Part shown: piece after piece, positions 4,051 through 30,312 of the stretch | Numbering within the stretch: position 1 is the stretch's first letter | Layout of the letters: the number at the start of each line of letters is the position of its first letter | From: Spirochaetota bacterium | GTDB taxonomy: Bacteria > Spirochaetota > UBA4802 > JAFGDQ01 | Assembly: GCA_043803405.1 (NCBI GenBank) | Contig: JAZDKB010000007.1 | Span: 1-63,147, forward strand | Direction of reading: 5' to 3' | Length of the DNA: 63,147 nt | Notes under the pieces: generated by a model | What the model was told of the DNA's origin: nothing | What the model saw: only the letters and a program-made list of their open reading frames with translations | The model's database searches: none | Made by a program: the position numbers and the translations under genes

Positions 4051-5625
4051 TTATTTTTTTTCGTAAATTCTCATGTCTGTTTGAAAATAAGATACAAATA
4101 CCTGGGTTTCTTTTAAACGCCAGTTTCCGGATCTGTCCATTATTGCCTTTAAAACGCTGTCTTCAAGATGCATTTTCCCGTTTTTTATCCGGTTTGCTAT
4201 TTCCGGAGATCCTATTGCTTTTGTCCGAAGCAACATTATGTAACGTGTATTTATCGCTGAAATACCGGCTGGTGTTTTTAAATCGGGAAATCTTTTTAAT
4301 ATATACCGGGACTTTTCATCAGGCATTACCATAAACTGGTCAATCTTTGATCCATACGAGTATTGGATCGCGAAACATACTGCCGCATTTCCGTCGTGAA
4401 TTATTGTTATATTTTCAGGCTCGAGTTTTTGTATATATGCGTTGACCGATGAGAACCTGGAATGAGAAAAATAAGTGCCGTTTATAATGAACCTGGACGC
4501 GGAATAGACGTTAGCGCCCAAAAGCAGCAGAATTGCTACAGTCTTAATAATATTTGAAAAACGGAATGTAACAGCCAAAGAAGACGATAAAAGAACGCAA
4601 AGTCCCGGTAATATCCAGAGATTATAACGGGTTTCGGTTACAAGAGGCGATACCAGAAATCTGCCAATAACAATAACAACGAATCCCGCGATTAAAGCTG
4701 TTAAAATTGCGTCTCTTTGCTTATATCCAACGTCTTTTTTTATAATAGAGAGAATAACCAATGCTGAAAACCCAAGTGCTGCTGAAATAACGGCAACAAT
4801 CGAGACCGCTGTGGTTGGATGGGCAAACTGGCGGTAAAGGAGACGCATTATAGCAAGAATATTACCTTCATCTGATCCGCCGACTTTATTGCCGAGATGG
4901 CTAAACATCGCAATAAGAAATGGGACAAGACCTATAGCGGCAAATCCGGCTATAATAATTGCCAGTAATACAGGTTTAAGCGATCTTCCTTCTCTCCAGC
5001 TACCTAGAAGGGTTGCTGACAATAAGCTTCCTGCCATTAACACGCCAAAAAAATGGGAATATGTTGCAAGTATTGAAAATGCTACAATACCGATCAACCA
5101 CTTGTTTTGATTGCTTTCAGATTGTTCGAAAAATCGGACCAGGCAATAAAATCCGCAGGCAGATATTAATAATAAAATAGGATATACACGGATGTTGACA
5201 GCCTGTTCTATTACATTAGGAGATAAAGCAAATAAAAATCCTGCCAGTAATCCCGATGTGAATCCGAATGCCTTTCTTGCTGTCTCGTAAACTACTACAA
5301 CTGCTATGCCGACAACAAATAATGCAAAATATCGCAAAGATATCTCAGTTAATCCGAAGATAGATGACCATAACATTTGCAGCCAATAGCCTACTGGTGG
5401 CGCGTTATCCGGAGGAACATTAAAGTTGTGGAATTGACCAGACAACCAGCCAATAATTTCAATGGGGCCTAATGTCAAACCGCTGAGGACAGTTGTCTCG
5501 TCAGTCCATAATGATTCCTGGGGTAAAAACAGCAAAGCCGGGACTAAGAGAGCAATAAGTGGGGGAATAGCTCCTAAAATTGGGATCCGAAGAAAGATGG
5601 ATTGGAATGATGTTGTTTTATTCAT
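4051..5625 (-). CDS. GT-C fold membrane glycosyltransferase (PMT/ArnT-like, GT39/83)
   Basis: 'SLWTDE', 'APP..Y', 'EISLR', 'IRVYP', 'YSHFFG', 'RY' motifs; multi-TM. Confidence 0.85.
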   Translation of the reverse strand: MNKTTSFQSIFLRIPILGAIPPLIALLVPALLFLPQESLWTDETTVLSGLTLGPIEIIGWLSGQFHNFNVPPDNAPPVGYWLQMLWSSIFGLTEISLRYFALFVVGIAVVVVYETARKAFGFTSGLLAGFLFALSPNVIEQAVNIRVYPILLLISACGFYCLVRFFEQSESNQNKWLIGIVAFSILATYSHFFGVLMAGSLLSATLLGSWREGRSLKPVLLAIIIAGFAAIGLVPFLIAMFSHLGNKVGGSDEGNILAIMRLLYRQFAHPTTAVSIVAVISAALGFSALVILSIIKKDVGYKQRDAILTALIAGFVVIVIGRFLVSPLVTETRYNLWILPGLCVLLSSSLAVTFRFSNIIKTVAILLLLGANVYSASRFIINGTYFSHSRFSSVNAYIQKLEPENITIIHDGNAAVCFAIQYSYGSKIDQFMVMPDEKSRYILKRFPDLKTPAGISAINTRYIMLLRTKAIGSPEIANRIKNGKMHLEDSVLKAIMDRSGNWRLKETQVFVSYFQTDMRIYEKK

Positions 5626-7986: not shown

Positions 7987-9129
7987 TTACTGCCCTGTAC
8001 AAACGTCTCTTTTTAAAATAAATGCGTTATGCTCTGATGATTGAGGCGAGGATTTTGCTTTAATAGCTTCACGAATTTTCAAGACAGCCCGGAGAGCGCG
8101 GACAGTAAGAGTACTCAATATTGAGCCATTTGAACTATAAAAAATTCCAACGCTGACTGCGTCCGGATGCCAGCGATTTATCCAATCGACACCTGTAACA
8201 AAGCTTATTGTGTGCAAGCTCTTTTCCTGACAATAGCGCTCTATCAATTTATACAGAAGCAAAAAACCGGGGCTAAACTCGGAAAAATCTTCGCGAAATC
8301 CGATTTTAAGAAGGTAGAGTTTATTGCTAATCGCAATTCCAAATTGGGCGGCAATTGCTTCATCATTTAGCGTTAAAAGGTTGATCCGGCACAAACCAAG
8401 ACTGCTGAAGTGTTGCTTCAGATACATATAATAATTCAGTTTCCATGGTTGTTTTAAAATACTGGTGCCATCCTGTCCTTTCCATCCTGAATTTTCGACT
8501 TGAAGAAATTGGTTAAATGCTGCATCAAGATCCTTTCCCTCCTGTAGAATTCTTAATTCTAAATTCCCTTTTTCTTCGATTTTCCGCATTTTTTTTAATA
8601 AGTCTTTGCGGAATTTATTGCTGTACCGCTCTATAAAATCCTCATAGCCTTTGCTGAAATGCAAATACTTTGAATAATGAGTGTTGCGGAAAGATTTGTT
8701 TACGTCGAGCGCAGCAGCACATCCGTTTTCCATCAGACACTGCCAGCGCACAAATAAAAAAAACGGCAATGTTTTGCGGAGGGCTTTAGCAATATCGTTC
8801 CGGTAGGGGAAAAGTGAGGTGTTTGTTAAGACATCGTTAACACCCATCTCATTTGGGTAGTACAATTGCACAATAGGGAGTTTGAAAAATTTAATTTTAA
8901 TGGTTGTCCATTGAAACGGCAGAACAGCAAAAAGAGCCCCTTTTGTATCCGTTAGAGAAAGAAAATAAACATTATCTCCGCCGCTGTGTTGAAGTTCGGC
9001 TCCATACCAGGCGGGATAGTGTAGAAAATGTGTACCTGATACCTTTGCCAGATCGTTCCAGGCGCTTTCCAGTTCGTTAAATCCGGGTAATCCCCGATGC
9101 ACGGTTATTTGAATGCTCGAATTAGTCAT
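7987..9129 (-). CDS. GNAT-family protein of the CelD/BcsL (FemAB-like) type
   Basis: 'AWNDL', 'SGWKG', 'AIAAQFG', 'LKIGF..FSEFSPGFLL'. Start placed at the ATG at 9129, which overlaps the NRPS stop (ATGACTAA). Confidence 0.85.
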   Translation of the reverse strand: MTNSSIQITVHRGLPGFNELESAWNDLAKVSGTHFLHYPAWYGAELQHSGGDNVYFLSLTDTKGALFAVLPFQWTTIKIKFFKLPIVQLYYPNEMGVNDVLTNTSLFPYRNDIAKALRKTLPFFLFVRWQCLMENGCAAALDVNKSFRNTHYSKYLHFSKGYEDFIERYSNKFRKDLLKKMRKIEEKGNLELRILQEGKDLDAAFNQFLQVENSGWKGQDGTSILKQPWKLNYYMYLKQHFSSLGLCRINLLTLNDEAIAAQFGIAISNKLYLLKIGFREDFSEFSPGFLLLYKLIERYCQEKSLHTISFVTGVDWINRWHPDAVSVGIFYSSNGSILSTLTVRALRAVLKIREAIKAKSSPQSSEHNAFILKRDVCTGQ

Positions 9130-11680
9130 TTTCAATTGCGGACTCCGGTTCATATTGCTGCATGATTTCGAAGATGCTTGTAGCGCATACTCCAGCAAGC
9201 ATTTTTTCATGATCGGCTTTTACCTGGTGAATGTATAAATTTCCTTTAATATACTCCTTAAGCCGATAATCCTGATAAGGTCTGATGCCGAATCCGAAAT
9301 CCGTATCTGTGGCTTTCACCAGCACGCAATCAAACGGATAAGTATTTTTTGCTTCCATGAAAACACATGCTGCCTGGTCAAATGCTTCTTCACGCCCTTT
9401 TTGATTATAAGCTCTGTGTAGGGGAGGTTTTCTTCTTTTTGAATTTAAATGTCCCCTCATCATTTTTAAAGTGTACTTAATCATCTTTAAAGGGCCTTCG
9501 CTAAAGATATATTTAAGAGTATCTTCTGCTAAACCGCAGAATGAACGGTATGAGCTAATATCGGTATAGGAATCGAGCAGGTATATGTTGTGTACCACTA
9601 TGCCTTCCGTGGTTAATTTCCTGGCGACTTCGAGACACATAAGTCCGCCGAAAGATAATCCAACAAGAGTAAGCGCTTTGGATTTTCCCTGGCGTAGAAT
9701 TGCGCTTTTGTAGGTCTCTACTAAAGCATCCAGGGAAAAATCAATACTTTCGTTATTAGCTTCCGCATTCAGAAAACTTACTTCCTCAGATGCAAAGATG
9801 CCGTACACCGGTCTTAAGCCCTTATAGTGTTCAGCCAATTCAGCGTATATCTGAACTCCAGCCAAACAGAATATCGGGTCTCCATGTTTTGACTCGTTAA
9901 GTTTAATGACGCTCGATGCCCTTATTTCCGATTTACCTAAATGAGTACGAATTTGTCGAATTGTTGGAGTTTCGAAAAATACGGATATAGGAAAATCCAA
10001 TCCTGTGGCTTTTTTCATTTCTTTTCTTGCCTGTAAAGCCAGAAGAGAATGCCCTCCCAAACTAAAAAAGTTATCATCTATGCTTATTTTTTTTACACCA
10101 AGCAAAGAAGCCCATACAATCATCAAACTGCGGTCAAGGTCATCCCGCGCGTCCACAATATCGAATTTTTCAGGACATTTAAATCTTTCTATGGCTTCAT
10201 TTGCCAGTACTTTTCTGTCGATCTTATAGTTCGCCGTCAGCGGAAACTCTGTTACGCAAACGAAATGTTGCGGCACCATATATTCCGGTAAATATTGTTT
10301 ACAGAGATCACGCAATACAGTATTTTTATCTGGTATGCCGGCGTAAAAAGCAATTAATCGAACGTCGCCAGCATTGATTTCAGATGCTACTACCACGCTT
10401 TGCTGTACCAGATCGCTTTTTGCCAAAACCTGTTCAATTTCGGATGGTTCGATCCGAAATCCGCGTATTTTAAGCTGATTATCAATCCGGTTGATGTACT
10501 CAATATTTTTGTCGGGACTCATTTTAACGAGGTCTCCTGTGCGGTACACTCTGTCACCAGATTTAAGTGTGATAAATCGTTCCGCAGTTAATTTATCATT
10601 GTTATAGTAACCGAGCGCTACACCTTTTCCTCCAATCAGCAATTCTCCCGATGAACCTGCCGAAACAGGATCGAGTTTATCGTCGACAATGTAAACCTGA
10701 GTATTCCGGATCGGCTTCCCGATATAAATTGTATTGTCTTCTTCCACTTTAAAACAAGTTGACCATACGGTCGTCTCGGTAGGGCCGTACATATTCCAAA
10801 CTTCATTTGCCACATTGGTCAGAATGGTTTTTAAATCAATGGGAAAGGCTTCCCCACCTATTAAAATTTTTAATTTACGTTCAGGCTGCCAGCCATTTTC
10901 TAAGATTATGCGCCAGGTGGCCGGTGTTGCCTGAATTACACTAATGTGTCTACTATCGATTAGTTCACGCAACGCACTTTGCAAAATACTTTCTTCCCGC
11001 GTGGCTAAAATCAGATGCGCGCCGACGAACAGAGGCAGAAAGATTTCCAGGATGTGAATGTCAAACGAGATGGTCGTAATCGCTAATAAATTGTCTTTGT
11101 AATTCAGACCAGGTTCGACTGCCATTGATTCGATGAAATTGATTAAATTGGCCTGGCTTATGGCAACTCCCTTCGGATTTCCGGTTGAACCTGATGTGTA
11201 GATAATGTAAGCGATATCGCTTTCATCTATGGTGTCGCTTGCCAGGGTCACATCAGTCGAAACAGGCATTGTCGAAGCGGGTACAAGTAACTCGTTCAGC
11301 TTTACAACTGGACAGCCGAACTCCATTGGTGTGTTGTTGTGATCGCATATAGCTATTTTTGCATGCGAGTTCTCCAAAATATAAATTTGCCTTTGGACTG
11401 GAAAGGCTGGATCGACCGGTACATAGGCTGCTCGCAAAGACCATATTGCTAACAATAACGGGACAAGTGCTTCGTTACGGGAAACCCCAACAGCCACTTT
11501 GTCGCCCGCATCGATCCCGTAACTTTTCAGCGCCAGGGCAAACGATTTGGCTTTTAGTGCTAATTCCTGATAAGTATAAGTCAGAGTTTTGCTGGTTAAT
11601 GCATCTGCTGTTGGGGATTTCGCCACCTGCTGATCAAATCCATCAATATAACTTGCGATCTTAAGCGAAGTATTTATCAT
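9122..11680 (-). CDS. Stand-alone NRPS-like protein, A-PCP-TE architecture, glycine-type adenylation domain
   Basis: A-domain cores YTSGSTGNPKG, NMYGPTE, YRTGDL, KIRGFRIE, K in LTANYKIDRK; PCP FFSLGGHSL; TE GLSFGG; no condensation domain. Confidence 0.92.
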   Translation of the reverse strand: MINTSLKIASYIDGFDQQVAKSPTADALTSKTLTYTYQELALKAKSFALALKSYGIDAGDKVAVGVSRNEALVPLLLAIWSLRAAYVPVDPAFPVQRQIYILENSHAKIAICDHNNTPMEFGCPVVKLNELLVPASTMPVSTDVTLASDTIDESDIAYIIYTSGSTGNPKGVAISQANLINFIESMAVEPGLNYKDNLLAITTISFDIHILEIFLPLFVGAHLILATREESILQSALRELIDSRHISVIQATPATWRIILENGWQPERKLKILIGGEAFPIDLKTILTNVANEVWNMYGPTETTVWSTCFKVEEDNTIYIGKPIRNTQVYIVDDKLDPVSAGSSGELLIGGKGVALGYYNNDKLTAERFITLKSGDRVYRTGDLVKMSPDKNIEYINRIDNQLKIRGFRIEPSEIEQVLAKSDLVQQSVVVASEINAGDVRLIAFYAGIPDKNTVLRDLCKQYLPEYMVPQHFVCVTEFPLTANYKIDRKVLANEAIERFKCPEKFDIVDARDDLDRSLMIVWASLLGVKKISIDDNFFSLGGHSLLALQARKEMKKATGLDFPISVFFETPTIRQIRTHLGKSEIRASSVIKLNESKHGDPIFCLAGVQIYAELAEHYKGLRPVYGIFASEEVSFLNAEANNESIDFSLDALVETYKSAILRQGKSKALTLVGLSFGGLMCLEVARKLTTEGIVVHNIYLLDSYTDISSYRSFCGLAEDTLKYIFSEGPLKMIKYTLKMMRGHLNSKRRKPPLHRAYNQKGREEAFDQAACVFMEAKNTYPFDCVLVKATDTDFGFGIRPYQDYRLKEYIKGNLYIHQVKADHEKMLAGVCATSIFEIMQQYEPESAIEND

Positions 11681-11768
11681 TATTCTTATCCGTCACATAT
11701 AAATGGTACTGAAAATAACATACTGTCCAATTTTTACGGTCCAGTATATCCCTTCTGCGATTATGACT

Positions 11769-12638
11769 TTATATAATATATTTTGATAATTTTGGAAAAA
11801 AATTTTTAGTAATCCATATTAATATACTGCAAGTAATAAAAACTGCTAAAGGTAAAAAATACCCTAGATTTACATTAAACTTAAAAAAAACCATGTAAAT
11901 AAATGGATGTAATAAATAAATACCAAGTGTAAGTTCAGATATGTTACGAATATTAAAATTAAAATTTAACCATGGTGGAAAAAATATAATAGGAAAAAAC
12001 ATCAAAATTCCAATAGTATATGAAATACCAACACCAGTTATATTTATATTTATTACTGCTGCCAATAAGAATAATAGCATTATAAATTTGTGGAATTGGA
12101 ATATCGAAGTAAGTTTATTAAATGCCCAAAAATAAGCACCGACAAAAACAGCAGGGAGGGCATGAGAATACTGCGCCCATGGTGCTCCTAATGCATTGGT
12201 AAAATCCCTCCATAAAAAGACAGATAGAAGTGATATTAAGGCAATGCAAACTGCAGAATAACCAATTTTCAAGACTGTCGAATTTTTTTTTATTAAATCA
12301 AATAAAATCAAAATAAAAAACATAAATGGCAGATACCATAAATGGATCTTTGAACCTGCCAGTAAACCAGTTATAAATCCATTATCCGTATCAATAAATG
12401 GTTTATCAATGATAAAATTAACAAAACCGTAAAATAAAGACCAAGACAGCCATGGAAGCAATAAACTTTTTAAGCGCTGAATTACATTGTGACCATCACC
12501 CGAAAGATAAACTGAAAGGATTATAAAAAAAACAAGACCAGAATATCCTATATCTGCACCTTTAAGATGGGAATGAAACCATACAATGCCAAAAGCACTC
12601 AAAATTCTAAATAATTCAATATCTTGTCGATATTTCAT
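11769..12638 (-). CDS. Acyltransferase-3 (OafA-like) membrane O-acyltransferase
   Basis: 'IELFRILSAFGIVWFH', 'HLWYLP', 'GIYLLHP'. Confidence 0.85.
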   Translation of the reverse strand: MKYRQDIELFRILSAFGIVWFHSHLKGADIGYSGLVFFIILSVYLSGDGHNVIQRLKSLLLPWLSWSLFYGFVNFIIDKPFIDTDNGFITGLLAGSKIHLWYLPFMFFILILFDLIKKNSTVLKIGYSAVCIALISLLSVFLWRDFTNALGAPWAQYSHALPAVFVGAYFWAFNKLTSIFQFHKFIMLLFLLAAVININITGVGISYTIGILMFFPIIFFPPWLNFNFNIRNISELTLGIYLLHPFIYMVFFKFNVNLGYFLPLAVFITCSILIWITKNFFPKLSKYII

Positions 12639-14901: not shown

Positions 14902-14930
14902 TTGACAAATTAATAAAAAATGAATATTAT
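14902..14930 (+). promoter_or_regulatory. sigma70-type promoter upstream of the PEP-CTERM/exosortase operon
   Basis: TTGACA(14902-14907)-17 bp-TATTAT(14925-14930). Confidence 0.55.
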
Positions 14931-15124
14931 TAAATCAAAATAGTAATACATTTGTAATAAATTTATATATTTTGTCTGTTATGTCCTAATTTCTATTAAG
15001 ATATATTACAAATGTTTATCTCTCCAGAGAGAGTCTTTTATCTATTGTGCAAGAATTTAATGTTGGCAACGATTATAAAAATATAAAATCCGCTGTGTAT
15101 TTAATAAAATAAAGAGGAGGCGCT

Positions 15125-15340
15125 GTGAAAAAATATTTAATAATGACTCTTGTTTGTTTATTTTTAGGCTCATCAGTATATGCTATGGGACGTGATAATA
15201 ATCATGGTAATAACGGTACTCATAATGGTAGTAATGGTACTCATCCTGGTGGAAGCGGTACTCCGGAGCCGGCATCACTATTATTATTACTTGCCGGTGG
15301 TGCAGCAGCCTTTATAACAAAGAAGATAATTAAAAAATAA
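15125..15340 (+). CDS. Minimal PEP-CTERM sorting-signal protein (71 aa)
   Basis: Strong SD AGAGGAGG before GTG; signal peptide (..SVYA); Asn/Gly/His-rich linker; TPEP + hydrophobic helix + KKIIKK; directly upstream of the exosortase. Confidence 0.9.
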   Translation: MKKYLIMTLVCLFLGSSVYAMGRDNNHGNNGTHNGSNGTHPGGSGTPEPASLLLLLAGGAAAFITKKIIKK

Positions 15341-15372
15341 TTTAGGGTGAAGGATATAAGTTTATCTTCTCT

Positions 15373-16899
15373 ATGGCTGTGATAATGCGAGAATATGCCG
15401 CATATTTAAAAATTGCCGTATTTATTTCTCTTAACATTATATTTTTATTCAAAGGTTTCTGTATTTTTTATGATAAATGGTTTTGGTGGGGATCCTATTA
15501 CAGCCATAGTCCTCTTGTAGTAGCAGCTTTCATCTGGCTTCTGGTAAAAAGAGCAAAAGATTATAAGCCAGCTTTGGAGAAACATCCTTTTCATATATCC
15601 GGTATAGTAATAATATTTATTTCCATAGCAATGTATCTGTTTGGATTATGGAAAAATTTCCCTACATTTGTCACATGGGGAATGTTAGTATTTGTTATTG
15701 GAAATGCCGTATTATTTTTAAGCAAGAATTTTGTAATAAAGAATATCGGTATATTTATATACCTGCTGCTGGCAATCCCGGTCCCGCAAATAGCAATTGA
15801 CAGCCTTACATTTGAACTTCAATTATTCGCCTCATATCTTTCAGAAAATGTTATATCATTAATATATCCCTCAACATTTCGAAACGGTAACATACTTCAG
15901 GTTAACGGGCATTATATTTCAATCACATACGAATGCAGCGGACTTAGTAATCTTCTTAGCATGCTTTCGGCAGTATGGCTAATGGCGCTTTTTCAAACAA
16001 AAAAAATTATTACTGTAATTGATTATTTAATTTCAATTCCTGCTGCAATTATTTCGAATATTCTTAGAATTGTTATTGTAACGATTTTAGTTGTAAACGG
16101 CTATGAACAATTTGCATTGAATGACTGGCATTCAGAAATAGGAATAATAGTTTTTATTTTTATTGTTATACTTATAGTAATATTTAACGAGTTGCCTTTT
16201 AAAAAAGATGACTTTCATTTTAAGATTTCATTTACCGGACTGGTATCCCATATCAACAAAAATAATAAATTATTAAATATATATATTATATTTCTGATAA
16301 TACTATCTTTTGTAAGTTTTGTTATTCCGGATAAAAATAATTTCCATAATTCAGGTGCTGAAATACTTTTAAAAGATATAATCCCGGACTCTATCGGCAA
16401 TTGGAAATCGCGAAACGAGATACTTGGTGAAAATTACTTTAATGTATTGGGTACGAATGATTTACTTATGAGAGCGTTTTGGGAAAAAGGAAAGAGTCCG
16501 GAGAACAATAATGTGTATTTATATATTATTCGATCAAAAGATAATGCGGCTGCTTTTCATCGGCCGGAAGCATGTCTGCGCGGGGAAGGCTATGAATTAT
16601 CGGCTCATAATGAAGTAGATTTAATTTTAATAAATAAAAAAATAATTCCGGTTCATAGAACATTATTTGTTGATAAGGATAAAGGTTTATTGGTTTATTA
16701 TTGGTATTATATAAACGGTAAAAACATAAAAGATACTTTAAGGTATCAACTTGAATTTCTTTTCAACATGAACGATGATTCAAGCGGGAGTTTTATAAGA
16801 ATATCCAAACCGGTGAATTTGAATAAAATAACTCAGGAAGAGCAAAAAATGAAACAATTTGCAAATGAAATAATTCCTGAAATACTGAAATATCTTTAA
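15373..16899 (+). CDS. Exosortase (EpsH-like) fused to an EpsI-type periplasmic domain
   Basis: 'YYSH', catalytic 'ECSGL', 'NILRI', 'WH...G'; C-terminal 'HRPEACLRGEGY' and 'VYYWY' EpsI motifs. Confidence 0.92.
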   Translation: MAVIMREYAAYLKIAVFISLNIIFLFKGFCIFYDKWFWWGSYYSHSPLVVAAFIWLLVKRAKDYKPALEKHPFHISGIVIIFISIAMYLFGLWKNFPTFVTWGMLVFVIGNAVLFLSKNFVIKNIGIFIYLLLAIPVPQIAIDSLTFELQLFASYLSENVISLIYPSTFRNGNILQVNGHYISITYECSGLSNLLSMLSAVWLMALFQTKKIITVIDYLISIPAAIISNILRIVIVTILVVNGYEQFALNDWHSEIGIIVFIFIVILIVIFNELPFKKDDFHFKISFTGLVSHINKNNKLLNIYIIFLIILSFVSFVIPDKNNFHNSGAEILLKDIIPDSIGNWKSRNEILGENYFNVLGTNDLLMRAFWEKGKSPENNNVYLYIIRSKDNAAAFHRPEACLRGEGYELSAHNEVDLILINKKIIPVHRTLFVDKDKGLLVYYWYYINGKNIKDTLRYQLEFLFNMNDDSSGSFIRISKPVNLNKITQEEQKMKQFANEIIPEILKYL

Positions 16900-17345: not shown

Positions 17346-17804
17346 ATGAAAAAAATTGCACTTGTTGCGTCTTCAGGGGGACATTTGTTTGAACTATTTA
17401 GCCTGAAAGAATTCTGGAAGGATAAAGATTATTTCTGGGTTAGTTTTAAAACAAAAGATGCGGAATATTTACTGGATATGGATGGGATTAATGTATATTG
17501 GGCATTTTATCCAACTAACAGGAATATTAAAAATTTAATAAAAAATTTTTTATTAGCTTTTAAAATATTAAAAAAAGAGAAACCGTACGCGCTTATGTCG
17601 ACTGGAGCGGGAGTTGCGGTGCCGTTTATCATTTGTGCTAAACTAATGAAAATAAAAACAGTTTATCTTGAATCCATTACCAGAATGAAAGAATTATCAT
17701 TAACAGGAAGACTTGTTTATCCTTTTGTTGATAAGCTTCTTGTTCAATGGCCGGAATTAGCAGATAAGTATAAAAAAGCTGAATTTGAAGGTAGAATATT
17801 ATGA
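17346..17804 (+). CDS. pssD: PssD/Cps14F (Alg14-like) glycosyltransferase subunit
   Basis: 'ASSGGHL', 'STGAGVAVP', 'YLESITR...SLTGRL', 'VQWPE'; start moved to MKKIALV. Confidence 0.9.
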   Translation: MKKIALVASSGGHLFELFSLKEFWKDKDYFWVSFKTKDAEYLLDMDGINVYWAFYPTNRNIKNLIKNFLLAFKILKKEKPYALMSTGAGVAVPFIICAKLMKIKTVYLESITRMKELSLTGRLVYPFVDKLLVQWPELADKYKKAEFEGRIL

Positions 17805-18283
17805 TGTTCGTTATTACAGGAACAGAAGCCTATCCATTTGATAACCTGATCAGGGAAATTGACCGTTTAAAGGGATGCGGGTGTATAAAGGATAATGTTT
17901 TTATTCAACTCGGTTCGTGCAATTATGTGCCCGAATATTGTTCTTATAGCAGATGGTTGCCCTTTAATGAAATGATAGATAATATAAACACAGCCTCTTT
18001 AATAATTTCGCACGCCGGAGCCGGTACAACTCTTCTGTGTTTAGAATTAGGAAAGAAGCCTGTTTTAGTAACACGAAAAAAAGAATACGGTGAACATCTT
18101 GATAACCATCAGATTTTATTTGCTGAAATGATGGAGAATCTGGGGCTTGCTATTGTCGCTTATGATGTTAAAGATCTGGAACAATGTATTGGAAAAAACA
18201 AAATTGTCACAAATGGGAAACAAATTTATAAAAAAAATAATTCAAAGCTTATAAATTATTTAAACAGTTGGATTATGGAGTGA
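17801..18283 (+). CDS. pssE: PssE/Cps14G (Alg13-like, GT28 C-terminal) glycosyltransferase subunit
   Basis: 'FVITGT', 'ISHAGAGT', 'GEHLDNHQ'; ATGA overlap with pssD. Confidence 0.9.
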   Translation: MMFVITGTEAYPFDNLIREIDRLKGCGCIKDNVFIQLGSCNYVPEYCSYSRWLPFNEMIDNINTASLIISHAGAGTTLLCLELGKKPVLVTRKKEYGEHLDNHQILFAEMMENLGLAIVAYDVKDLEQCIGKNKIVTNGKQIYKKNNSKLINYLNSWIME

Positions 18284-18477
18284 CAAAAAAATAATAATTC
18301 CTGTGCATCAGATTCAGTTGCTTTCTTAAAAAAGAAAGGAGGCATGCAAAAACCACTATGCGAACAGCAGCGCTGACAGAAGCGCTCTTTATCCGGAATT
18401 AAAAGTAAATTGATTAATAGCAGTTCTTCTGCCGCATACTGGCAAATAAATTTTTTTTCTGATTGCAGCCGAACATT

Positions 18478-19317
18478 TTATTTTATATGAGAAGCCAGGA
18501 ATGCAAGAAAATGATCAGCGGCAAATGATGCTCCTCTTTCATTTAAATGCCCTCCGTCATTAGTATATTCTTTTAAAAGAGAATGATGTTTTATGCCTCC
18601 TGTTGAGCTCTCCTTTAATATGCCATTTTGATCGGTTGATTCAATTTTTGCAATATCAAATAGATTATTACTGTACTCCGATCGCATAAGCTGGTTAAAT
18701 TCATGCCTAATAATATTATCATAAGCTTCTCCGGTTTTCCGGCCTGAAATTTTTTTAATATAATTTTTAGCAAACGTTACAATATCATCCTTTTCCATTC
18801 TTAAGGGTATGGTGAAATGTAAAAATTTTGTTTTTTTAAATTTTTTTTCAAGTTTTTTCATGGATTCTTTGTAGTTTTGAAATATTAATTTTACATCGGA
18901 ATTATAATTGAAATCCACATAGCAAAATTTAAAAAATGCAGCATCGGCTTTATCCCCGAGTCCGTTTTCCATTTTTTCTAAAAAAGATTTTATTTTTGAC
19001 ATTGGGTCCGCATTATTTCCATTTACAGAATGGGCAAAAACCGGTGAGTTAAAATCACCCTGTTTGCTGGTCTCAATAATATTTAGTTTAATATTTGGAT
19101 TATTTTTTATAATTTCCTTAATCCCATCAATGATATTATATCCTACAGACTGATGGCCAAAATATATCTTCTTCCCTGCAAGGTTTTTCCATTCAGGTTG
19201 AGAAATATTTGTAATTTCCATGCTGTATTTTTGAACGCTCATACGATCTCCTTTATTACATGAACTTATAAAAAAAATAATCAATGCTATATTTACAAAT
19301 TTTTGATAAATAGTCAT
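18478..19317 (-). CDS. Putative lipoprotein with an SGNH-hydrolase-like fold
   Basis: Lipobox-like FISSC; 'FGHQSVG' and C-terminal 'DGGHLN' (DxxH). Confidence 0.6.
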   Translation of the reverse strand: MTIYQKFVNIALIIFFISSCNKGDRMSVQKYSMEITNISQPEWKNLAGKKIYFGHQSVGYNIIDGIKEIIKNNPNIKLNIIETSKQGDFNSPVFAHSVNGNNADPMSKIKSFLEKMENGLGDKADAAFFKFCYVDFNYNSDVKLIFQNYKESMKKLEKKFKKTKFLHFTIPLRMEKDDIVTFAKNYIKKISGRKTGEAYDNIIRHEFNQLMRSEYSNNLFDIAKIESTDQNGILKESSTGGIKHHSLLKEYTNDGGHLNERGASFAADHFLAFLASHIK

Positions 19318-19614
19318 AATTCACTCCAATAAAGTTATTTTTCAGTTGGTTAGTGATTTTACATTTGTGCCTGCTCGGATATAATTTACTTTTATCGATT
19401 TATATTAGTTGTCAATACTTTTACAGAATCCTTAAACCCGGTTTGCCATAATTATTTTGAAGCGAGTTAATAAAATAATAGTCAATTATTATTTTAAGAT
19501 TACAATAGCATCTTTTTCAGGATAAACTTGGATAGGAAGGGAATTAATACAGTCAACAGCCATTCCCGGAATTTTATCACTTATTACTGCAATTCGGAAT
19601 CAATTTTTTTTATA

Positions 19615-20922
19615 TTATAAATCTGCTGCTTCTGTGACTTTATCATATTTAAGTTTTTCTGAAAAGCTTATCAAAGCGCCTGATGATAAAATAAAGACAG
19701 GATTTATCATTCCGTTTAAAAGAGTATCTATAATAAATAAGATTAAAACAAGGCTAATAACAGCAGCATCTATGGATGCGGTTCTGGACTTCATAACTTT
19801 CCACGGTCCCAGAAGCAAAACAGAATATAGGCTTAAAAGGCCTAAATAGCCTCTAACGCTGAAGACAGCCAGATATACCGAATCTATCATACTAATAGCA
19901 TTCTGTCCGGTTAATGGATTAATCGGCCATGCTCTTTCTATCCAGCCCCATCCTAAAAGAGGACGTTCCAGTGCCTTTATGCCGAACAACTCCTCCTGCT
20001 GTAATCGCGTTGAAAGCGACTCAATCCTTTCGGCATTAAATATTTTTGATAAATAGTCTATTATTGTATCAGCAGGAAGGATTCCGGATATCCTTAGAAG
20101 GATATATACTGGAATAATGATAATTAATATATTAAATATTCTTTTTGATTTTAGGTAATAACCAAGGGTTCCAAATATTAAATAGACAATTGCTGCCGAG
20201 CATTTGCAGAGTATTGTTGATATTAAAAGCAGAATAACTATTACGATCATTGGAATCTTTTTTATTTCAGTAATTTCCCTGGTACTTAATAACCAGAATG
20301 AGACTATATACGCTGTAGTCATCCACAGCGCGACCATTAGTCCGTGATCCATAAATACAATGGGTCTGAATCCTCCATACCTGATAAGCTCAGCAAAGCT
20401 GGTAGGGGTGAATCCATAAATAATCCTTGAAAGCTGCGGGCTCATCCTTACTTCAAAAAGCACAAGTGGAACATAAATAAGACCCCCTATTATTATCCCT
20501 CTGCATAACAAACGCAGAGCTTCTTTATCGGAAAAAAAGATTCGCCCTGCCATATAAAAAACTCCATAATCCAGGGAAGTTTGTACAACAGCGGCAACCG
20601 CATTATAAGTGCCTAAATCGTTTGCCAGAACAGATAAAAACGGGGACATGATGCACCATATAATTATCGGTATATCTAGCCACCCCGGACTGAAGGCCAT
20701 ATCCCTTATCTTTCCTGAAAAACCAATTCCGGAGAGCAGAGATACAGCTATTGCTGTGTTTTTTCCATAATATATCATCGGAATATCTAATTTTATAACA
20801 GGTAAAAAGAGAAGTCCGCCTATAACGGAAATCAGAATGGCCTTTTGAGGAGTAAATTTTCGAAAGAGGATAATGTTAATGGGTATCCATCCCCACGTCA
20901 TTACCAGTACAAGAAAGCTCAT
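19615..20922 (-). CDS. Wzy polymerase / O-antigen-ligase-like membrane protein
   Basis: Multi-TM; 'GFRPIVF..HGL', 'ERPLLGWG', 'DS.YL...G..G'; sits next to wzc. Confidence 0.75.
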   Translation of the reverse strand: MSFLVLVMTWGWIPINIILFRKFTPQKAILISVIGGLLFLPVIKLDIPMIYYGKNTAIAVSLLSGIGFSGKIRDMAFSPGWLDIPIIIWCIMSPFLSVLANDLGTYNAVAAVVQTSLDYGVFYMAGRIFFSDKEALRLLCRGIIIGGLIYVPLVLFEVRMSPQLSRIIYGFTPTSFAELIRYGGFRPIVFMDHGLMVALWMTTAYIVSFWLLSTREITEIKKIPMIVIVILLLISTILCKCSAAIVYLIFGTLGYYLKSKRIFNILIIIIPVYILLRISGILPADTIIDYLSKIFNAERIESLSTRLQQEELFGIKALERPLLGWGWIERAWPINPLTGQNAISMIDSVYLAVFSVRGYLGLLSLYSVLLLGPWKVMKSRTASIDAAVISLVLILFIIDTLLNGMINPVFILSSGALISFSEKLKYDKVTEAADL

Positions 20923-21121
20923 GCATACTCCATATTACTATCATTTATATTAGCAGAGAGTAAAGACATATTTGTTGTTCTTTCTGTTATAATTTTAAGA
21001 CTGGAATGTTTATGCAGCAAATATAATAAAATTGAAAATATGTTTTGGCAAAAAGTCCTTTCAATTATTCATTCATATTTTTAAGGATTTTGGTAAAATA
21101 ATAATTCAATATCTATATAAT

Positions 21122-22921
21122 CTATAACCACTTATATATTATTTCCGGAATCGGAAACCTCCTTTTGTTTAATATAATACCAAACGGATTTCCTTTTTTT
21201 TGTTTTATGTAAGAAATTGAATTTTTTACGATCTGACGTTTTTCTTTCCCGTCATTTAGTACCAGTACAATGCCATCTGAATGGGATGATAATATAGCGG
21301 TATCTTTAAATTCCTTTAGATTGGTACAGTCTATTATAACAGCATCGTAAATAGATTTAATAATCTTAAAAGTTGCATCTATCTTTGAATCGTTGAAAAG
21401 TGTAAATGGAGTCATAGATGAATTTCCGGCTTGCAATAGATCTAATCTGGGATCAACATGAATAATAATTTCATCCGTTTTTATCTTTAATTCACTATCA
21501 TATAATGATAATTCTTCTCTTGTGCTTTCTATTTTTTTCGCAATATTATTATTAGGTTCTGTGTTTACGTGTTTCTTAGTAATTTTATGTTTTGAATTCT
21601 CAACTATTTCCAAAATATTATTTCTAGGCTGATGTTCATTAGTAGAGCCAGTAATAATAGCATGATATTCTATTAATTTACTTTCTTCAAGCATATTGGA
21701 TAGCCCGGGGCCTTCTTTGATATTGAACAATTTATGCAGGGAAGGATTCCGGAAATTGGCATCAATAATAAGTGTTTTTATGTGCATTTTTTGCGCTAAA
21801 GTCAGACCAATATTAGCACAAATTGTTGAGGATCCTCCCTTGGGAAACGCGGAGGTGATTAAAATAGTCTTTAACTTATTTACTTTCATGTATATGAATA
21901 ATTGATCTGTAAGATCTTCGAAAAAATTTGAATAAAGCAGTTCCGATTTTGATGGATTAAATTTATTGATGTTAATTAGAACTTCATCTTTGTATTTTCT
22001 AATTGGAATAGAACCCAGTAAAGGAAGTCCGGTATGTTTTACAATCTCATTGGGTGATTTAAAAGTCTGATCGATATAGAAATCATAAAGAAATGCCAGT
22101 CCAATGCTGGCACATATACTTACCATAATAGCGATTAAAAAAGTTTGCGATCTTGACTTTCCAATTGGTATATTGTCTGATATAGCTTGCTCAATAACTT
22201 TAACGCTTGCCGTTCCGATAGCCTCGAGTTCTGGCAATTGTTCGCCTGATAGTTTCTCTGTCATACTAAATATATTATCTCTTTGCTGCTGTACAGATGG
22301 ATGCTGTGCCCCATATTTTTGAGTCAGTTCCGCATATTGTTGCTGAAGATCAAAAATGACAAACGATCGGCTGACAACATTTGCAGTTGCTATTGCATTT
22401 TCAGGACTATAATCTTTAATTATAATGAAAAAAATATCAGTTCCAGGAATTAATTCTGTCGATACATTGTCTCTTAAATCACTAATTGCATTGTTAATGC
22501 TTTCTTCTTTTAGTTTTTCAGGAGTTAAATATACGGGAATGTTCTGTATTTTTCTTATTCTATAATCGATTAACAATTTTTTTAAAGGATGGCAAAAATT
22601 TTTTTCATAATCGATAGGCCGTTTATCAAGTTTAAGGGCTATAACGGCACGTTTTAGAACAGAATTCGATTTAACTATTTCCATCTGTGTACGATGTATG
22701 GGTCTTGATCCCAAATCAAAATATGATGTTGCGCTAACCGCTGATCTTCCGACAATATGCATCTTAACTTTTGCTTCATAGATTGGTGTTTGAAAAATCA
22801 AAGCGATAAAAATTCCAACGATAATCGGGGGAGACAATAGTATTACTATTAATTTTTGCCGAAAAATAGCGCTTATTATATTACGCAAATTAATTTCGTT
22901 TGTTTGTTCTTGTTTTTCCAT
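21122..22921 (-). CDS. wzc: Wzc-like polysaccharide co-polymerase with a degenerate BY-kinase domain
   Basis: Wzz-like N-terminus ('EINLR', 'TPIYEA'), second TM, 'LPLLGSIP', Walker A' LIIDAN and Walker B VIIDC; Walker A reads PKGGSST. Confidence 0.85.
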   Translation of the reverse strand: MEKQEQTNEINLRNIISAIFRQKLIVILLSPPIIVGIFIALIFQTPIYEAKVKMHIVGRSAVSATSYFDLGSRPIHRTQMEIVKSNSVLKRAVIALKLDKRPIDYEKNFCHPLKKLLIDYRIRKIQNIPVYLTPEKLKEESINNAISDLRDNVSTELIPGTDIFFIIIKDYSPENAIATANVVSRSFVIFDLQQQYAELTQKYGAQHPSVQQQRDNIFSMTEKLSGEQLPELEAIGTASVKVIEQAISDNIPIGKSRSQTFLIAIMVSICASIGLAFLYDFYIDQTFKSPNEIVKHTGLPLLGSIPIRKYKDEVLININKFNPSKSELLYSNFFEDLTDQLFIYMKVNKLKTILITSAFPKGGSSTICANIGLTLAQKMHIKTLIIDANFRNPSLHKLFNIKEGPGLSNMLEESKLIEYHAIITGSTNEHQPRNNILEIVENSKHKITKKHVNTEPNNNIAKKIESTREELSLYDSELKIKTDEIIIHVDPRLDLLQAGNSSMTPFTLFNDSKIDATFKIIKSIYDAVIIDCTNLKEFKDTAILSSHSDGIVLVLNDGKEKRQIVKNSISYIKQKKGNPFGIILNKRRFPIPEIIYKWL

Positions 22922-22977
22922 TTTTTTGTCACATCTAAATTAATTTAATACTTTTATATAATTATTGAGATTAAATT

Positions 22978-23559
22978 TTAAAAAAAACTTTCTGATACAA
23001 CAACAATATCTCCCGGCTCAAGGACTAAATCCGCTCGCGCGTCTCCTTCAATTACCTTACCGACATCGATTTCAATTTTTGTGTAACCGGGCCTATCATT
23101 TCGTTGTCTGAGTACGCGAACTTTACTTTTTGATCCGAACCTTGTAAAACCTCCGGCAACGGAAATTGCCTTTAAGACTGTAGTGTTATCGCCTAAAGGA
23201 TAAGTTCCGGGCCTGACTATTTCCCCACTAATTGTAAAATTTCTGCTTCGTGATTCAATAAGAGAAACAGTAACAACCGGATATTTTAAATATCCGGTTG
23301 CCAGCCTCCATTGAATATTTTGCTGAATTTCTGTAATGGTTTTATCTTTTACTCTAACGCTACCTAAATACGCTACCGATATATCGCCGCTAGGAGAAAC
23401 CGTGACGCGGTCAACAGAAGGATCAGGTTTTAATATCCTGATTTCGATAATATCGCCGACTCCAACTTTATATTCTTCTGCAAGAAGAATATTTATAGGT
23501 AGTATTAAAAAAGCTATTAAAAATAATAAATGTTTTATTGATATTGTATATAATTTCAT
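22978..23559 (-). CDS. wza: Short OPX polysaccharide export protein (Poly_export + one SLBB)
   Basis: 'YKVGVGD', 'V.PSGDI...YLG.V', 'GEIVRPGTY', 'AISVAGG', 'LEPGDIVVV'; no lipobox, no C-terminal OM helix. Confidence 0.9.
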   Translation of the reverse strand: MKLYTISIKHLLFLIAFLILPINILLAEEYKVGVGDIIEIRILKPDPSVDRVTVSPSGDISVAYLGSVRVKDKTITEIQQNIQWRLATGYLKYPVVTVSLIESRSRNFTISGEIVRPGTYPLGDNTTVLKAISVAGGFTRFGSKSKVRVLRQRNDRPGYTKIEIDVGKVIEGDARADLVLEPGDIVVVSESFF

Positions 23560-23782
23560 TTTTCACTTTCCTGGAAATTTTATTTGTTATTTGTCTGAAT
23601 TATTTTAATGTACATAATCAATAATAAATTTATAAATTACATTATTAATAATGTAATAATAAAAATTCAATCAATTAAAAGAATTTTTTCATTTTTTTAT
23701 GGGGATTATAAATGACCTGACGTAAGAAGTTGATCTTTCTGCATGTAATATTCAATTAAAATAAAGAAAATATTTTATTATA

Positions 23783-24952
23783 TTAAAATTCCGCTCTAAG
23801 TCCTAATCTGATTTGATTTCTGTCATATTCTGTTTTAACATCTGTCGGTCTTGTCTGTTTTGTTATATTTTTTGTATAAATATATTCTATAAACGCTGTA
23901 ACATGTTCTGAAAAAATCCGGTAAGAAAGACCTGTTCTTACTCCGGTCAATTCACTTTTTGTTGTAGTAACATCGGAAACTGTATTCCCGTATTGATAAA
24001 AACCTGATAAAGAAAAATCTAAAAAATAGGATATTTCTCTTGTTAAAGTTATTGAAAAATTCCAGACATTGTAAGTCTGATTCGTAAGAGGTATTATTTC
24101 GTATCTCCGGGATAATGATATATTTAGATTATTCCTTTCATCTATCTGATCAATTAGTGATAAAGTACTAAAGTTATTATAATTTTTTTCTTCTTCTGTT
24201 ATTACGTATGCTAAACCACTTTGCAGACTAATGAAAAATTGTCTGGTAAAATGGAATTCATATCCAAGGGCGCAGTTATGCAATATAGTTTTTTCATTTC
24301 CTGTTGCATTCTCTGCCTCATCATAGTTTAAGGCTTTCCAGTACGTATAGTTATAAATAATGGAAAAAATATTGGAAGAATTAATTTCATATCTTGCGAT
24401 AAAACCGGCGCTGTGTGAAATAGAATCATTCTGTGTATCAGATTGATTAAGAATATTTGTATAAATATTAGTATATTGAATATCTGTTCGAAAATAGCTT
24501 GTAAACTCTTTTAAATACCTTGCTGTTGCGGTATTTGTATAATATCCGGTACGTCCTCCGGCTGAACCGAATTGCTCCTGGAAATTTTGCGCTTCAGGAT
24601 AATGAGCAAATCTGTCACTTACATTAATTCTATCTGTGCTTGTTAGCTCACTTGCGATACTTAATTCGGCAGACTGCGCGTTGTTGTTCAGTTCGCTTGT
24701 CTTGTAATAGATTTGTTGTGTGCTTTGGCCGAGTAAACGCCAGTTAGTTGCTCTTCCTTCATGTCTCAGACCCAATCCAAATATTATTTCAGTAATAAAA
24801 TCGGATTCTTTTTCTTCTGCAGCATTAATATTATCATCATACATTTCGCTTAAGCTTCCATTGATAATCCCTTCTATAGAATAAGCTTTTTTTTGCAGAA
24901 ATGATAATATTATAATTATGACGGATAAAAAACAGCCTATATTTTTTAGCAT
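23783..24952 (-). CDS. Outer-membrane beta-barrel associated with polysaccharide export (EpsX/VpsM/BBP2-like)
   Basis: Signal peptide, 'YDDNI...ESDFIT', alternating beta-strands, C-terminal 'YDRNQIRLGLRAEF'; immediately upstream of wza. Confidence 0.75.
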   Translation of the reverse strand: MLKNIGCFLSVIIIILSFLQKKAYSIEGIINGSLSEMYDDNINAAEEKESDFITEIIFGLGLRHEGRATNWRLLGQSTQQIYYKTSELNNNAQSAELSIASELTSTDRINVSDRFAHYPEAQNFQEQFGSAGGRTGYYTNTATARYLKEFTSYFRTDIQYTNIYTNILNQSDTQNDSISHSAGFIARYEINSSNIFSIIYNYTYWKALNYDEAENATGNEKTILHNCALGYEFHFTRQFFISLQSGLAYVITEEEKNYNNFSTLSLIDQIDERNNLNISLSRRYEIIPLTNQTYNVWNFSITLTREISYFLDFSLSGFYQYGNTVSDVTTTKSELTGVRTGLSYRIFSEHVTAFIEYIYTKNITKQTRPTDVKTEYDRNQIRLGLRAEF

Positions 24953-25165
24953 GATTTTAATTGATGTCTTTTATTTTAACGCCTTGAGAGATAATACTCA
25001 GCATCTTTTTAATTCTTTCACGTTAAATACATGTTCAATCTTCGGTTTTGTCAAGTGTATAAATCTTATCTGAATTATTAGTTTTTTACAATACTGCTTA
25101 AAAAAATACCGGATACGCAGGAAAGATAATATTGTTTTCATTTAAAATATTTTTTTTCATTTTTC

Positions 25166-25194
25166 TTGATTTTTTTAAATTGGTGTTTTATAAT
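25166..25194 (+). promoter_or_regulatory. sigma70-type promoter with no downstream ORF
   Basis: TTGATT(25166-25171)-17 bp-TATAAT(25189-25194). Confidence 0.65.
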
Positions 25195-25199
25195 AAGTT

Positions 25200-25270
25200 A
25201 TGCCGCAACGGCATAACTTTTCAATTTAATTACCTCCTAAGACCGACTATCCCAGTCGGTTTCTTTTTTT
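25200..25270 (+). ncRNA. Candidate ~70-nt sRNA with a 5' hairpin, exposed ACCTCCT and an intrinsic terminator
   Basis: TGCCG-CAA-CGGCA hairpin, TTACCTCCTAA, ACCGACT-ATCCC-AGTCGGT hairpin plus T-run; lies between a promoter and a convergent gene end. Confidence 0.5.
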
Positions 25271-25282
25271 AATTGCGTATTT

Positions 25283-25618
25283 CTATTCTGTTCTTCTGTC
25301 TTTGGTCCTTCGTTCTTCTTTTCTGCGATCTATTAATTCTTTATCTTTTAACTCGTCCTGAAATTCTCCCTTGTCGAAAAATCCTTTTCGTAAATAAAAG
25401 CCTCTGTTAAAAGTACGTCTGTCCAGAGTTCTGCGTTCGGATTTTCTTTTTTCTTTAAAGTTTTTTTGATAGGTTTCATTTTTGCTTGTTTTACTTGTTA
25501 ATTTTCTAATTATCCACCTGATAAATTTTGACAGAAATTTTATTATAAAATATAATGTGAGTACTATTAACAGGCTGAATAGAAATATAAAAACATATTC
25601 AAGTGGTGTAGTTTTCAT
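25283..25618 (-). CDS. Small single-TM protein with repeated (D/E)RR / RxxxR motifs
   Basis: N-terminal TM; KRKSERRTLDRR and DRRKEERRTKDRR. Confidence 0.7.
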   Translation of the reverse strand: MKTTPLEYVFIFLFSLLIVLTLYFIIKFLSKFIRWIIRKLTSKTSKNETYQKNFKEKRKSERRTLDRRTFNRGFYLRKGFFDKGEFQDELKDKELIDRRKEERRTKDRRTE

Positions 25619-25800
25619 AAGGATAATATAATGAAAAAATAAAAAGAATTAATAAGATAAACGGAAAAAACAAACAATATCTTCAGTTTTCAGGAAAATT
25701 TTTAAATAAAATTATTTTAATGTTGTAAGAATTAACTGAATCTATAATATTATTGATTATTATACTTGTCAATTTCAATTGATATATCAAACATAAATTT

Positions 25801-26982: not shown

Positions 26983-26995
26983 AGAATAGTTTCTC

Positions 26996-30287: not shown

Positions 30288-30312
30288 GGCAGGCCGCCTT
30301 TGGAGGCCTGCC
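30288..30312 (-). terminator. GC-rich hairpin downstream of the 30329-31588 gene
   Basis: GGCAGGCC-gcctttgga-GGCCTGCC. Confidence 0.5.

What the first reader, a model, noticed from the sequence alone, without database searches (positions are those of the whole stretch)
15125..16899. A 26-residue PEP-CTERM 'sequon peptide' with its own exosortase inside an EPS locus: candidate covalent capsule anchor
Seen: after removing the signal peptide (..SVYA) and the PEP-TM-basic tail, the mature product is only about 26 aa (MGRDNNHGNNGTHNGSNGTHPGGSGT). It has no room for a folded domain but holds three N-x-S/T sequons (NGT, NGS, NGT) and three His. The exosortase-EpsI gene starts 32 bp after its stop. 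Established: exosortase/PEP-CTERM systems co-occur with EPS loci, and their usual substrates are larger proteins that are often proposed to be glycosylated. Inference: the peptide is a dedicated glycan acceptor that tethers the polysaccharide to the envelope, with the Wzy/O-ligase-like protein (19615-20922) or the GT-C (4051-5625) as transferase. Caveat: the sequons lack the D/E at -2 required by Campylobacter PglB, so linkage could be relaxed N-linked or O-linked on Ser/Thr.
Basis: partly seen in the sequence, partly recalled or inferred. Interest (0 to 1): 0.85.

Follow-up and report, generated by a model that had tools for sequence, protein, structure and literature searches.

The report
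Private exosortase with one mini-peptide substrate
An uncultured Spirochaetota-related bacterium keeps one membrane sorting protease next to its only tagged target, a 71-residue protein predicted to be trimmed to a short glycine/histidine-rich surface peptide that likely helps hold exopolysaccharide on the cell; the sugar-attachment motifs that drew attention are missing from most relatives, so this is a new variant of a known kind of system and not a "sequon peptide".

Summary
The gene pair is real; the sequon idea fails. Window 15125-15340 encodes a signal peptide, about 26 Gly/Asn/His-rich residues and a PEP-CTERM tail, 32 bp before an exosortase-EpsI fusion with an intact Cys/Arg/His triad. 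Each is the only one of its kind in the genome. In 122 genomes of the order, the same 13 carry both genes, always adjacent, so the pairing is dedicated. But 16 of 20 homologous peptides have no N-x-S/T sequon, and 7 sequons were seen where composition alone predicts 9.55. No PglB/STT3 was found, and the proposed GT-C and Wzy have homologues in only 2 of 13 cassette genomes; the other one has a sequon-free peptide. What is invariant is GG[GS]G-x-PEP (21 of 21). The cassette co-occurs with the Wza export module (11 of 13 versus 17 of 109) but often lies away from EPS genes. Best reading: exosortase cleaves the tail and likely transfers the peptide's C-terminus to an envelope acceptor, helping retain EPS. 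The enzyme subfamily is unnamed; tiny dedicated exosortase targets are already catalogued (XrtJ/PExPT-CTERM), and this scan has noted similar pairs on other DNA several times.

The parts
15125..15340 (+). Mini PEP-CTERM gene, 71 aa: signal peptide, Gly/Asn/His-rich passenger, PEP-CTERM tail
   Evidence: homologues directly upstream of the exosortase in all 13 cassette genomes; RNA-library contig 15066-15347, 100% identical
15125..15184 (+). Predicted Sec/SPase I signal peptide (20 aa, ends V-Y-A)
   Evidence: by inspection; same 20-24 aa pattern in 21 of 21 family members
15185..15262 (+). Predicted mature passenger, 26 aa, low complexity; holds the three non-conserved sequons
   Evidence: family length 17-44 aa, 33% Gly, 13% Asn, 10% His
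15242..15271 (+). Extended sorting motif H-x-G-G-[GS]-G-x-P-E-P
   Evidence: GG[GS]G-x-PEP in 21 of 21; His at -7 in 17 of 21 but only 7 of 30 further library proteins
15263..15340 (+). PEP, transmembrane helix and basic tail
   Evidence: TIGR02595 over cut-off; 11 synonymous and 0 non-synonymous codon differences in one close pair
15373..16899 (+). Exosortase (PF09721) fused to EpsI (PF11984/TIGR02914); unnamed subfamily; catalytic triad C188, R232, H253
   Evidence: model pLDDT 83.5; EpsI part resembles the PsbP/DcrB/Mog1 fold weakly (Z 6-7.5)
14902..14930 (+). Sigma-70-like promoter match (11 of 12) upstream of the mini-gene
   Evidence: consensus match only, 3 found against 6.4 expected in shuffles
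21122..24952 (-). Wzc-like, Wza-like and TIGR03016-like outer-membrane protein genes: the export module that co-occurs with the cassette
19615..20922 (-). Wzy-like membrane protein next to Wzc/Wza, likely the EPS polymerase; not tied to the cassette
4051..5625 (-). GT-C (PMT_2-like) beside a GT2; not tied to the cassette

Best explanation
The 71-residue gene and the exosortase behind it form a dedicated two-gene cassette in which the peptide is likely the enzyme's only substrate, predicted to be cut at both ends and likely joined by its new C-terminus to an envelope acceptor, giving a short flexible surface peptide that likely helps retain exported polysaccharide. Steps: (1, shown) the two genes are adjacent, co-occur strictly, and no other PEP-CTERM protein was found in 8 of 8 cassette genomes tested. 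(2, inferred from sequence) Sec export and signal peptidase I cleavage leave the peptide tethered by its C-terminal helix. (3, inferred from the intact C188/R232/H253 triad and family knowledge) the exosortase recognises GG[GS]G-x-PEP and removes the helix. (4, inferred by analogy with sortase, archaeosortase and rhombosortase) the acyl-enzyme is resolved by an amine acceptor, a lipid or an amine-bearing unit of the polysaccharide. (5, inferred from co-occurrence and from PEP-CTERM genetics in other bacteria) the product holds Wza-exported EPS near the cell. The passenger acts as a flexible spacer through its ends and bulk Gly/His/Asn chemistry, not through specific glycosylation sites.
For: Strict pairing: the same 13 of 122 order genomes have the exosortase subfamily (E 1e-150 or better) and a full-length peptide match (E 2e-21 or better). 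TIGR02595 finds only the adjacent mini-gene(s) in G000 and 7 other cassette genomes. Triad invariant in 24 of 24 aligned enzymes. GG[GS]G-x-PEP 21 of 21 while the passenger varies from 17 to 44 aa; in one close pair the tail has 11 synonymous/0 non-synonymous differences, the passenger 4/11 (ungapped comparison). Wza (PF02563) in 11 of 13 cassette genomes versus 17 of 109 others; within family f4, 8 of 10 versus 14 of 54; TIGR03016-like barrel 11 of 13 versus 13 of 109. An RNA-library contig covers exactly the mini-gene. PEP-CTERM/exosortase loss or gain changes EPS retention in Aquincola (PMC9850573, passages), Nostoc (PMC12188702, introduction and discussion) and Curvibacter (PMC13751637, passages).
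Against: No cleavage, acceptor or EPS link was measured. Kin are not independent, so the co-occurrence counts overstate. Wza lies on the cassette's contig in only 2 of the 11 genomes that have both, and in G024, G330, G344, G432 and the G341/G434/G435/G436 clade the direct neighbours are not EPS genes. Wza occurs without the cassette in 17 genomes, including same-genus G002, so the cassette is dispensable for having the export module. G432's exosortase is split into two frames. The published EPS-retention cases concern much larger PEP-CTERM proteins.
Confidence: 0.55

Rival explanations
1. One reading: the peptide is a dedicated N-glycan acceptor whose N-x-S/T sequons receive the polysaccharide from the GT-C or the Wzy/O-ligase-like protein.
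For: Three sequons in 26 aa in this one peptide (1.06 expected, 4.6% of shuffles); library protein P0041 also has three; the cassette lies inside an EPS locus here.
Against: 16 of 20 homologues have none; 7 seen versus 9.55 expected; 3 of 30 further motif-bearing proteins have any, 5 seen versus 7.6 expected; no STT3/PglB match; GT-C and Wzy homologues in 2 of 13 cassette genomes, and G349's peptide has no sequon.
Confidence: 0.07
2. The peptide is glycosylated on side chains with relaxed specificity (Ser/Thr, or Asn outside sequons) and joins the EPS that way.
For: [quoted passage not shown]
Against: No Ser/Thr/Asn position in the passenger is invariant; L015 has no Ser/Thr, L003 and one L029 copy no Asn; the library member P0063 has about 11 residues with no Asn, His, or Ser/Thr other than the residue before PEP (its gene context is unknown); no transferase family follows the cassette among those tested.
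Confidence: 0.13
3. The exosortase only hydrolyses the tail and releases a soluble His/Gly-rich peptide that binds metal ions or acidic polymer non-covalently, or serves as a signal.
For: His in 21 of 21 passengers, 10% of residues, up to 6-7 per peptide; sequence varies between species; cassette often stands apart from EPS genes.
Against: 5 of 30 further motif-bearing proteins lack His; a secreted peptide would not need a membrane anchor and a private protease; no receptor or regulator family is conserved next to the cassette in the loci read.
Confidence: 0.15
4. The pair works apart from EPS (another envelope job) or is a reduced remnant of a larger PEP-CTERM system; the EPS neighbourhood here reflects co-transfer.
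For: Patchy: 13 of 122 genomes, absent from 2 same-genus genomes at 90-93% completeness; non-EPS neighbours in most cassette genomes; split enzyme in G432.
Against: Tail under purifying selection, tandem duplication in G330, genome-level co-occurrence with Wza and the TIGR03016-like barrel, RNA contig on the mini-gene.
Confidence: 0.1

Closest known systems
XrtJ with its PExPT-CTERM target (NCBIfam TIGR04199 / TIGR04200)
   Same: A database-curated dedicated exosortase whose target is tiny: the target model is 57 positions long.
   Different: Peptides here score 9-21 bits against a cut-off of 40; relatives of the enzyme score about 18 against 200; the tail here is plain PEP preceded by GG[GS]G.
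XrtX / PID-CTERM of Bacteroidota (NF046080) and XrtE / VPEID-CTERM (TIGR04162)
   Same: Variant exosortases paired with short secreted low-complexity targets (target sizes recalled or taken from an earlier AI note, not read in a paper here).
   Different: PID-CTERM scores 7-13 bits against 26; exosortase E 17-31 against 150. Different motif and lineage.
XrtD (VPLPA-CTERM-specific, TIGR04152) and XrtW (NF038142)
   Same: Best-scoring named enzymes; same exosortase-EpsI fusion of about 490-510 aa.
   Different: 177 bits against 400 and 123 against 425; the family forms its own well-supported clade apart from the XrtD-like P0026 (quick tree); VPLPA motif absent.
XrtA/EpsH with PEP-CTERM proteins in EPS loci (Haft 2006, PMC1569441; PepA of Zoogloea/Aquincola)
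   Same: PEP-TM-basic tail over the TIGR02595 cut-off, Cys/Arg/His triad, EpsI, link to Wza and TIGR03016-like genes.
   Different: Those genomes average more than 10 mostly large targets with sigma-54 control; here one target of about 26 residues, no sigma-54 pattern found upstream of 18 mini-genes, XrtA 69 bits against 208.

Membership tests
PEP-CTERM sorting-domain proteins (TIGR02595) | PEP, hydrophobic helix, basic tail at the C-terminus, score over cut-off | tested here: met
   22.9 bits versus 16; 16 of 16 family peptides scanned are over cut-off
PEP-CTERM sorting-domain proteins (TIGR02595) | N-terminal signal peptide | tested here: met
   by inspection in 21 of 21; no predictor available
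Exosortase/archaeosortase family (PF09721, TIGR04178) | Family score over cut-off and Cys/Arg/His triad | tested here: met
   PF09721 118.6 versus 25.7; TIGR04178 39.7 versus 23; C188, R232, H253 in 24 of 24
Exosortase/archaeosortase family (PF09721, TIGR04178) | Cleavage of the sorting signal and transfer to an acceptor | not testable with these tools
   needs biochemistry
XrtD (TIGR04152) / VPLPA-CTERM | Enzyme over cut-off and VPLPA-type target | tested here: not met
   177 versus 400; VPLPA-CTERM at most 15.7 versus 25.35 for family peptides
XrtW (NF038142) | Enzyme over cut-off | tested here: not met
   123 versus 425; relatives 131 and 169
XrtA (TIGR03109) many-target EPS system | Enzyme over cut-off; many PEP-CTERM targets per genome | tested here: not met
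   69 versus 208; 1 target in 7 genomes, 2 in one
XrtJ / PExPT-CTERM (TIGR04199, TIGR04200) | Target and enzyme over cut-off | tested here: not met
   target at most 21 versus 40; enzyme relative 17.5 versus 200
Dedicated one-to-one sorting systems (as defined in bioRxiv 10.1101/2023.06.07.544157) | Enzyme and target regularly encoded by consecutive genes | tested here: met
   13 of 13 cassette genomes; definition read as a passage
PglB/STT3-type N-glycosylation substrate | Conserved sequons with D/E at -2 and an oligosaccharyltransferase in the genome | tested here: not met
   sequons absent from 16 of 20 homologues, extended sequon in 1 of 21; PF02516 not found in G000, 94% complete

The most novel reading that the evidence does not exclude
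The peptide is a two-ended covalent staple: the exosortase joins its C-terminal GG[GS]G end to a membrane lipid while its free N-terminus (M/F/L-G/S-R-like in most members) is linked to the polysaccharide, making it a minimal, ribosomally encoded capsule anchor in uncultured Spirochaetota and the simplest natural system for finding what exosortases attach their substrates to.
Probability: 0.12. Interest if true: 0.8.

Novelty: new variant of a known kind. Interest (0 to 1): 0.4.

Why it matters
What exosortases attach their targets to is an open question (stated as unresolved in the passages read of 10.1101/2023.06.07.544157 and PMC12188702). A one-enzyme, one-substrate pair whose product is only about 2.5 kDa makes any added lipid or sugar easy to see by intact mass, and the family alignment already points to GG[GS]G-x-PEP as the recognised element. 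It also extends exosortase systems to Spirochaetota-labelled genomes (no such paper found). The value is as a test system; the organisms are uncultured and similar mini-substrate pairs exist in other lineages, so this one is not unique.

Tried and rejected
Sequon conservation: rejected. GT-C and Wzy as dedicated transferases: not found with single-protein queries in 11 of 13 cassette genomes; such diverse families can be missed, so this shows only that these particular genes do not follow the cassette. A conserved hairpin between mini-gene and exosortase: none (window z -0.14; 1 of 18 below z -2). Sigma-54 pattern upstream: 0 of 18. His at -7 as an invariant: 17 of 21 in the first set but 7 of 30 in the second. 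RNA: no contig on the exosortase gene or on window 17400-37300 in run X1, and none in runs X2 and X3; contigs cannot rank genes and the run was found with a stretch holding the mini-gene, so no expression ratio is claimed. Foldseek gave no match at E 0.001; VIA-align gave only middling Z for the EpsI part, and the domain was not folded alone. The careful tree did not finish; only the quick tree was read. Literature searches for named small-target systems (VPEID-, PID-, PExPT-, VPLPA-, VPDSG-CTERM, XrtW; XrtJ/X/Y/D/E; PEP-CTERM plus small protein; exosortase plus Spirochaet) returned no paper describing this cassette (listings only); Haft 2012 J Bacteriol, the likeliest place for dedicated small-target systems, was not held and was not read. 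Taxa and gene context of the library mini-proteins (P0041-P0132) stayed unknown. No complex prediction was run (enzyme with substrate; the pairing is already well supported).

Full report
Observation. The sequence facts hold. Window 15125-15340 (+) encodes 71 aa from a GTG with a strong ribosome-binding site; it ends in PEP, a hydrophobic helix and a Lys-rich tail that scores over the TIGR02595 cut-off. With cleavage after V-Y-A, 26 residues precede PEP; they hold three N-x-S/T sequons without D/E at -2 and three His. The next gene, 15373-16899, starts 32 bp later and is an exosortase (PF09721) fused to EpsI. The surrounding 0.3-25 kb is a Wzx/Wzy-type polysaccharide locus: Wzx, several GT2s, a PMT_2-like GT-C, WecB, acyl- and acetyltransferases, an NRPS-like A-T-TE protein, PssD/PssE, a Wzy-like protein, Wzc, Wza and a TIGR03016-like outer-membrane protein. 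The closest named relatives of the enzyme (66% identity) are labelled Spirochaetota.

A dedicated pair. The 94%-complete genome has one PEP-CTERM match and one exosortase match, these two (an independent regular-expression scan agreed). Among 122 genomes of the order, 13 hold this exosortase subfamily (a 14th, G003, has a different, distant exosortase) and the same 13 hold a full-length match to the peptide profile; six further weak hits cover only the signal peptide inside long frames. In all 13 the mini-gene lies directly upstream. In the 7 other cassette genomes scanned with TIGR02595 the mini-gene is again the only hit, with two tandem copies in G330; 5 cassette genomes were not scanned this way. 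In a 401-genome sample of the phylum strong matches occurred only within the order. The enzymes keep C188, R232 and H253 in 24 of 24 rows, form one well-supported clade in a quick tree, and reach no named subfamily's cut-off (best XrtD 177 of 400, XrtW 123 of 425).

The sequon test. I assembled 21 distinct peptides (18 from loci upstream of the enzyme, 3 from a protein search; identical ones counted once, some close kin kept). Passengers are 17-44 aa, 33% Gly, 13% Asn, 10% His. Sixteen of the 20 homologues have no sequon and four have one; over all 21 there are 7 sequons against 9.55 expected from shuffling each passenger. Two lack Asn, one lacks Ser/Thr. A profile search of 1.84 billion representatives gave 95 hits; of the 93 new ids 80 are 125 aa or shorter, and of 30 non-duplicate ones with the same motif 3 carry a sequon (5 seen, 7.6 expected). 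The window's three sequons are therefore a by-product of Asn/Gly/Thr-rich composition. No STT3/PglB was found in the genome. The window's GT-C has a homologue in 1 other of the 122 genomes and its Wzy-like protein in 2 others; G349 shares both (71% and 67%) and carries the cassette, yet its peptide has no sequon.

What is conserved. GG[GS]G-x-PEP is invariant (21 of 21), followed by a conserved helix. His at -7 from PEP is common (17 of 21) but less so in the wider set (7 of 30). In one close pair the tail shows 11 synonymous and 0 non-synonymous codon differences, the passenger 4 and 11. Selection acts on the export and sorting signals, not on the passenger's sequence.

Link to EPS. Wza is present in 11 of 13 cassette genomes against 17 of 109 others, and the TIGR03016-like barrel in 11 of 13 against 13 of 109; kin are not independent. 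EPS genes flank the cassette in G000, G349, G285, L015 and (a priming glycosyltransferase only) G006, but not in G024, G330, G344, G432 or the G341/G434/G435/G436 clade, and G442/L018 have an acyl-CoA ligase whose best NCBIfam match is the exosortase-A-associated TIGR03098, under cut-off (for G432, G434, G435 and G442 only 1.5 kb flanks were read). So the cassette is a self-standing unit that tracks the export module at genome level.

Expression. One groundwater metatranscriptome run holds a 283-base contig identical to 15066-15347, which spans the mini-gene almost exactly, and a low-depth contig at 17102-17310; nothing was laid on a 19.9-kb neighbouring stretch. This is one run of one study, as contigs, found with a stretch that includes the gene: it suggests transcription and no more.

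Mechanism. Shown: adjacency, strict co-occurrence, sole target, intact triad, conserved motif. Inferred: Sec export and SPase I cleavage; exosortase cleavage at the motif; transfer to an amine acceptor by analogy with sortase and with the lipid attachment reported for archaeosortase (10.1101/2023.06.07.544157, passages); a role in EPS retention by analogy with PepA in Aquincola (PMC9850573, passages), CrtB in Nostoc (PMC12188702, abstract, introduction, discussion) and EpsH in Curvibacter (PMC13751637, passages). The EpsI domain models as an alpha/beta fold with middling likeness to PsbP/DcrB/Mog1 proteins, a lead for a peptide-binding role only. I put this explanation at 0.55; side-chain glycosylation of any type at about 0.2 in all, soluble release at 0.15, an EPS-independent or remnant role at 0.1.

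Comparison and novelty. It is a member of the PEP-CTERM/exosortase family and works like the dedicated one-to-one systems; it is not a member of XrtA, XrtD, XrtW, XrtJ or XrtE by curated cut-offs. NCBIfam already models a 57-position target for XrtJ, so tiny dedicated targets are a known kind at database level. The classical systems have more than 10 targets per genome (PMC1569441, passages). Four paper searches found no description of this cassette (listings only); Haft 2012 could not be read, and bioRxiv supplements were closed, so a mention there is not excluded. Earlier notes of this scan describe similar exosortase plus mini-substrate pairs in myxobacteria, Aminicenantales and Bacteroidota (unchecked AI notes), none with look-alike sequence to this enzyme. 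Verdict: a real, cleanly paired, unnamed variant; the sequon-peptide reading is not supported; interest 0.4.

Noticed in passing
window 7987-12638 (-): NRPS-like A-T-TE protein, PF13480 GNAT and an acyltransferase-3 inside the EPS locus; G349's EPS locus also has an NRPS (L042:539-6181). Possible aminoacyl decoration of the polysaccharide and so a candidate source of an amine acceptor.
   Followed up: no
L029:3038-3769 (G330): Two tandem mini-genes upstream of the exosortase, one His/Gly-rich and one Pro/Ser-rich.
   Followed up: partly
L056/L057 (G432:C9:124924-126418): The exosortase-EpsI gene is in two overlapping frames (412 and 141 aa open frames); assembly error or a natural break.
   Followed up: no
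window 4051-5625 and 19615-20922; G349:C12: GT-C and Wzy-like genes are 71% and 67% identical to genes of G349, a different family, and the two exosortases fall in one clade: likely shared ancestry or transfer of the EPS locus across families.
   Followed up: partly
window 14902-15033: Near-consensus sigma-70 site followed by a terminator-like hairpin (15020-15033) in the long AT-rich leader of the mini-gene.
   Followed up: partly
window 26996-62952: A long run of probably secreted proteins (FG-GAP/PKD, lactonase and NHL propellers, FGE-sulfatase-like, CsgG-like, OmpA) with many lacking any Pfam match, plus an IS200 transposase fragment.
   Followed up: no
P0061-P0132: Dozens of other 60-125 aa proteins made of signal peptide, low-complexity spacer and PEP-CTERM, some with PLDGG/PIGDG-type tails: mini-targets look widespread beyond this family.
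   Followed up: partly
L002 (G003:C539): A different exosortase without EpsI fusion, followed by a probable GNAT-like gene, in a same-family genome where TIGR02595 found no target (fragmented assembly).
   Followed up: no
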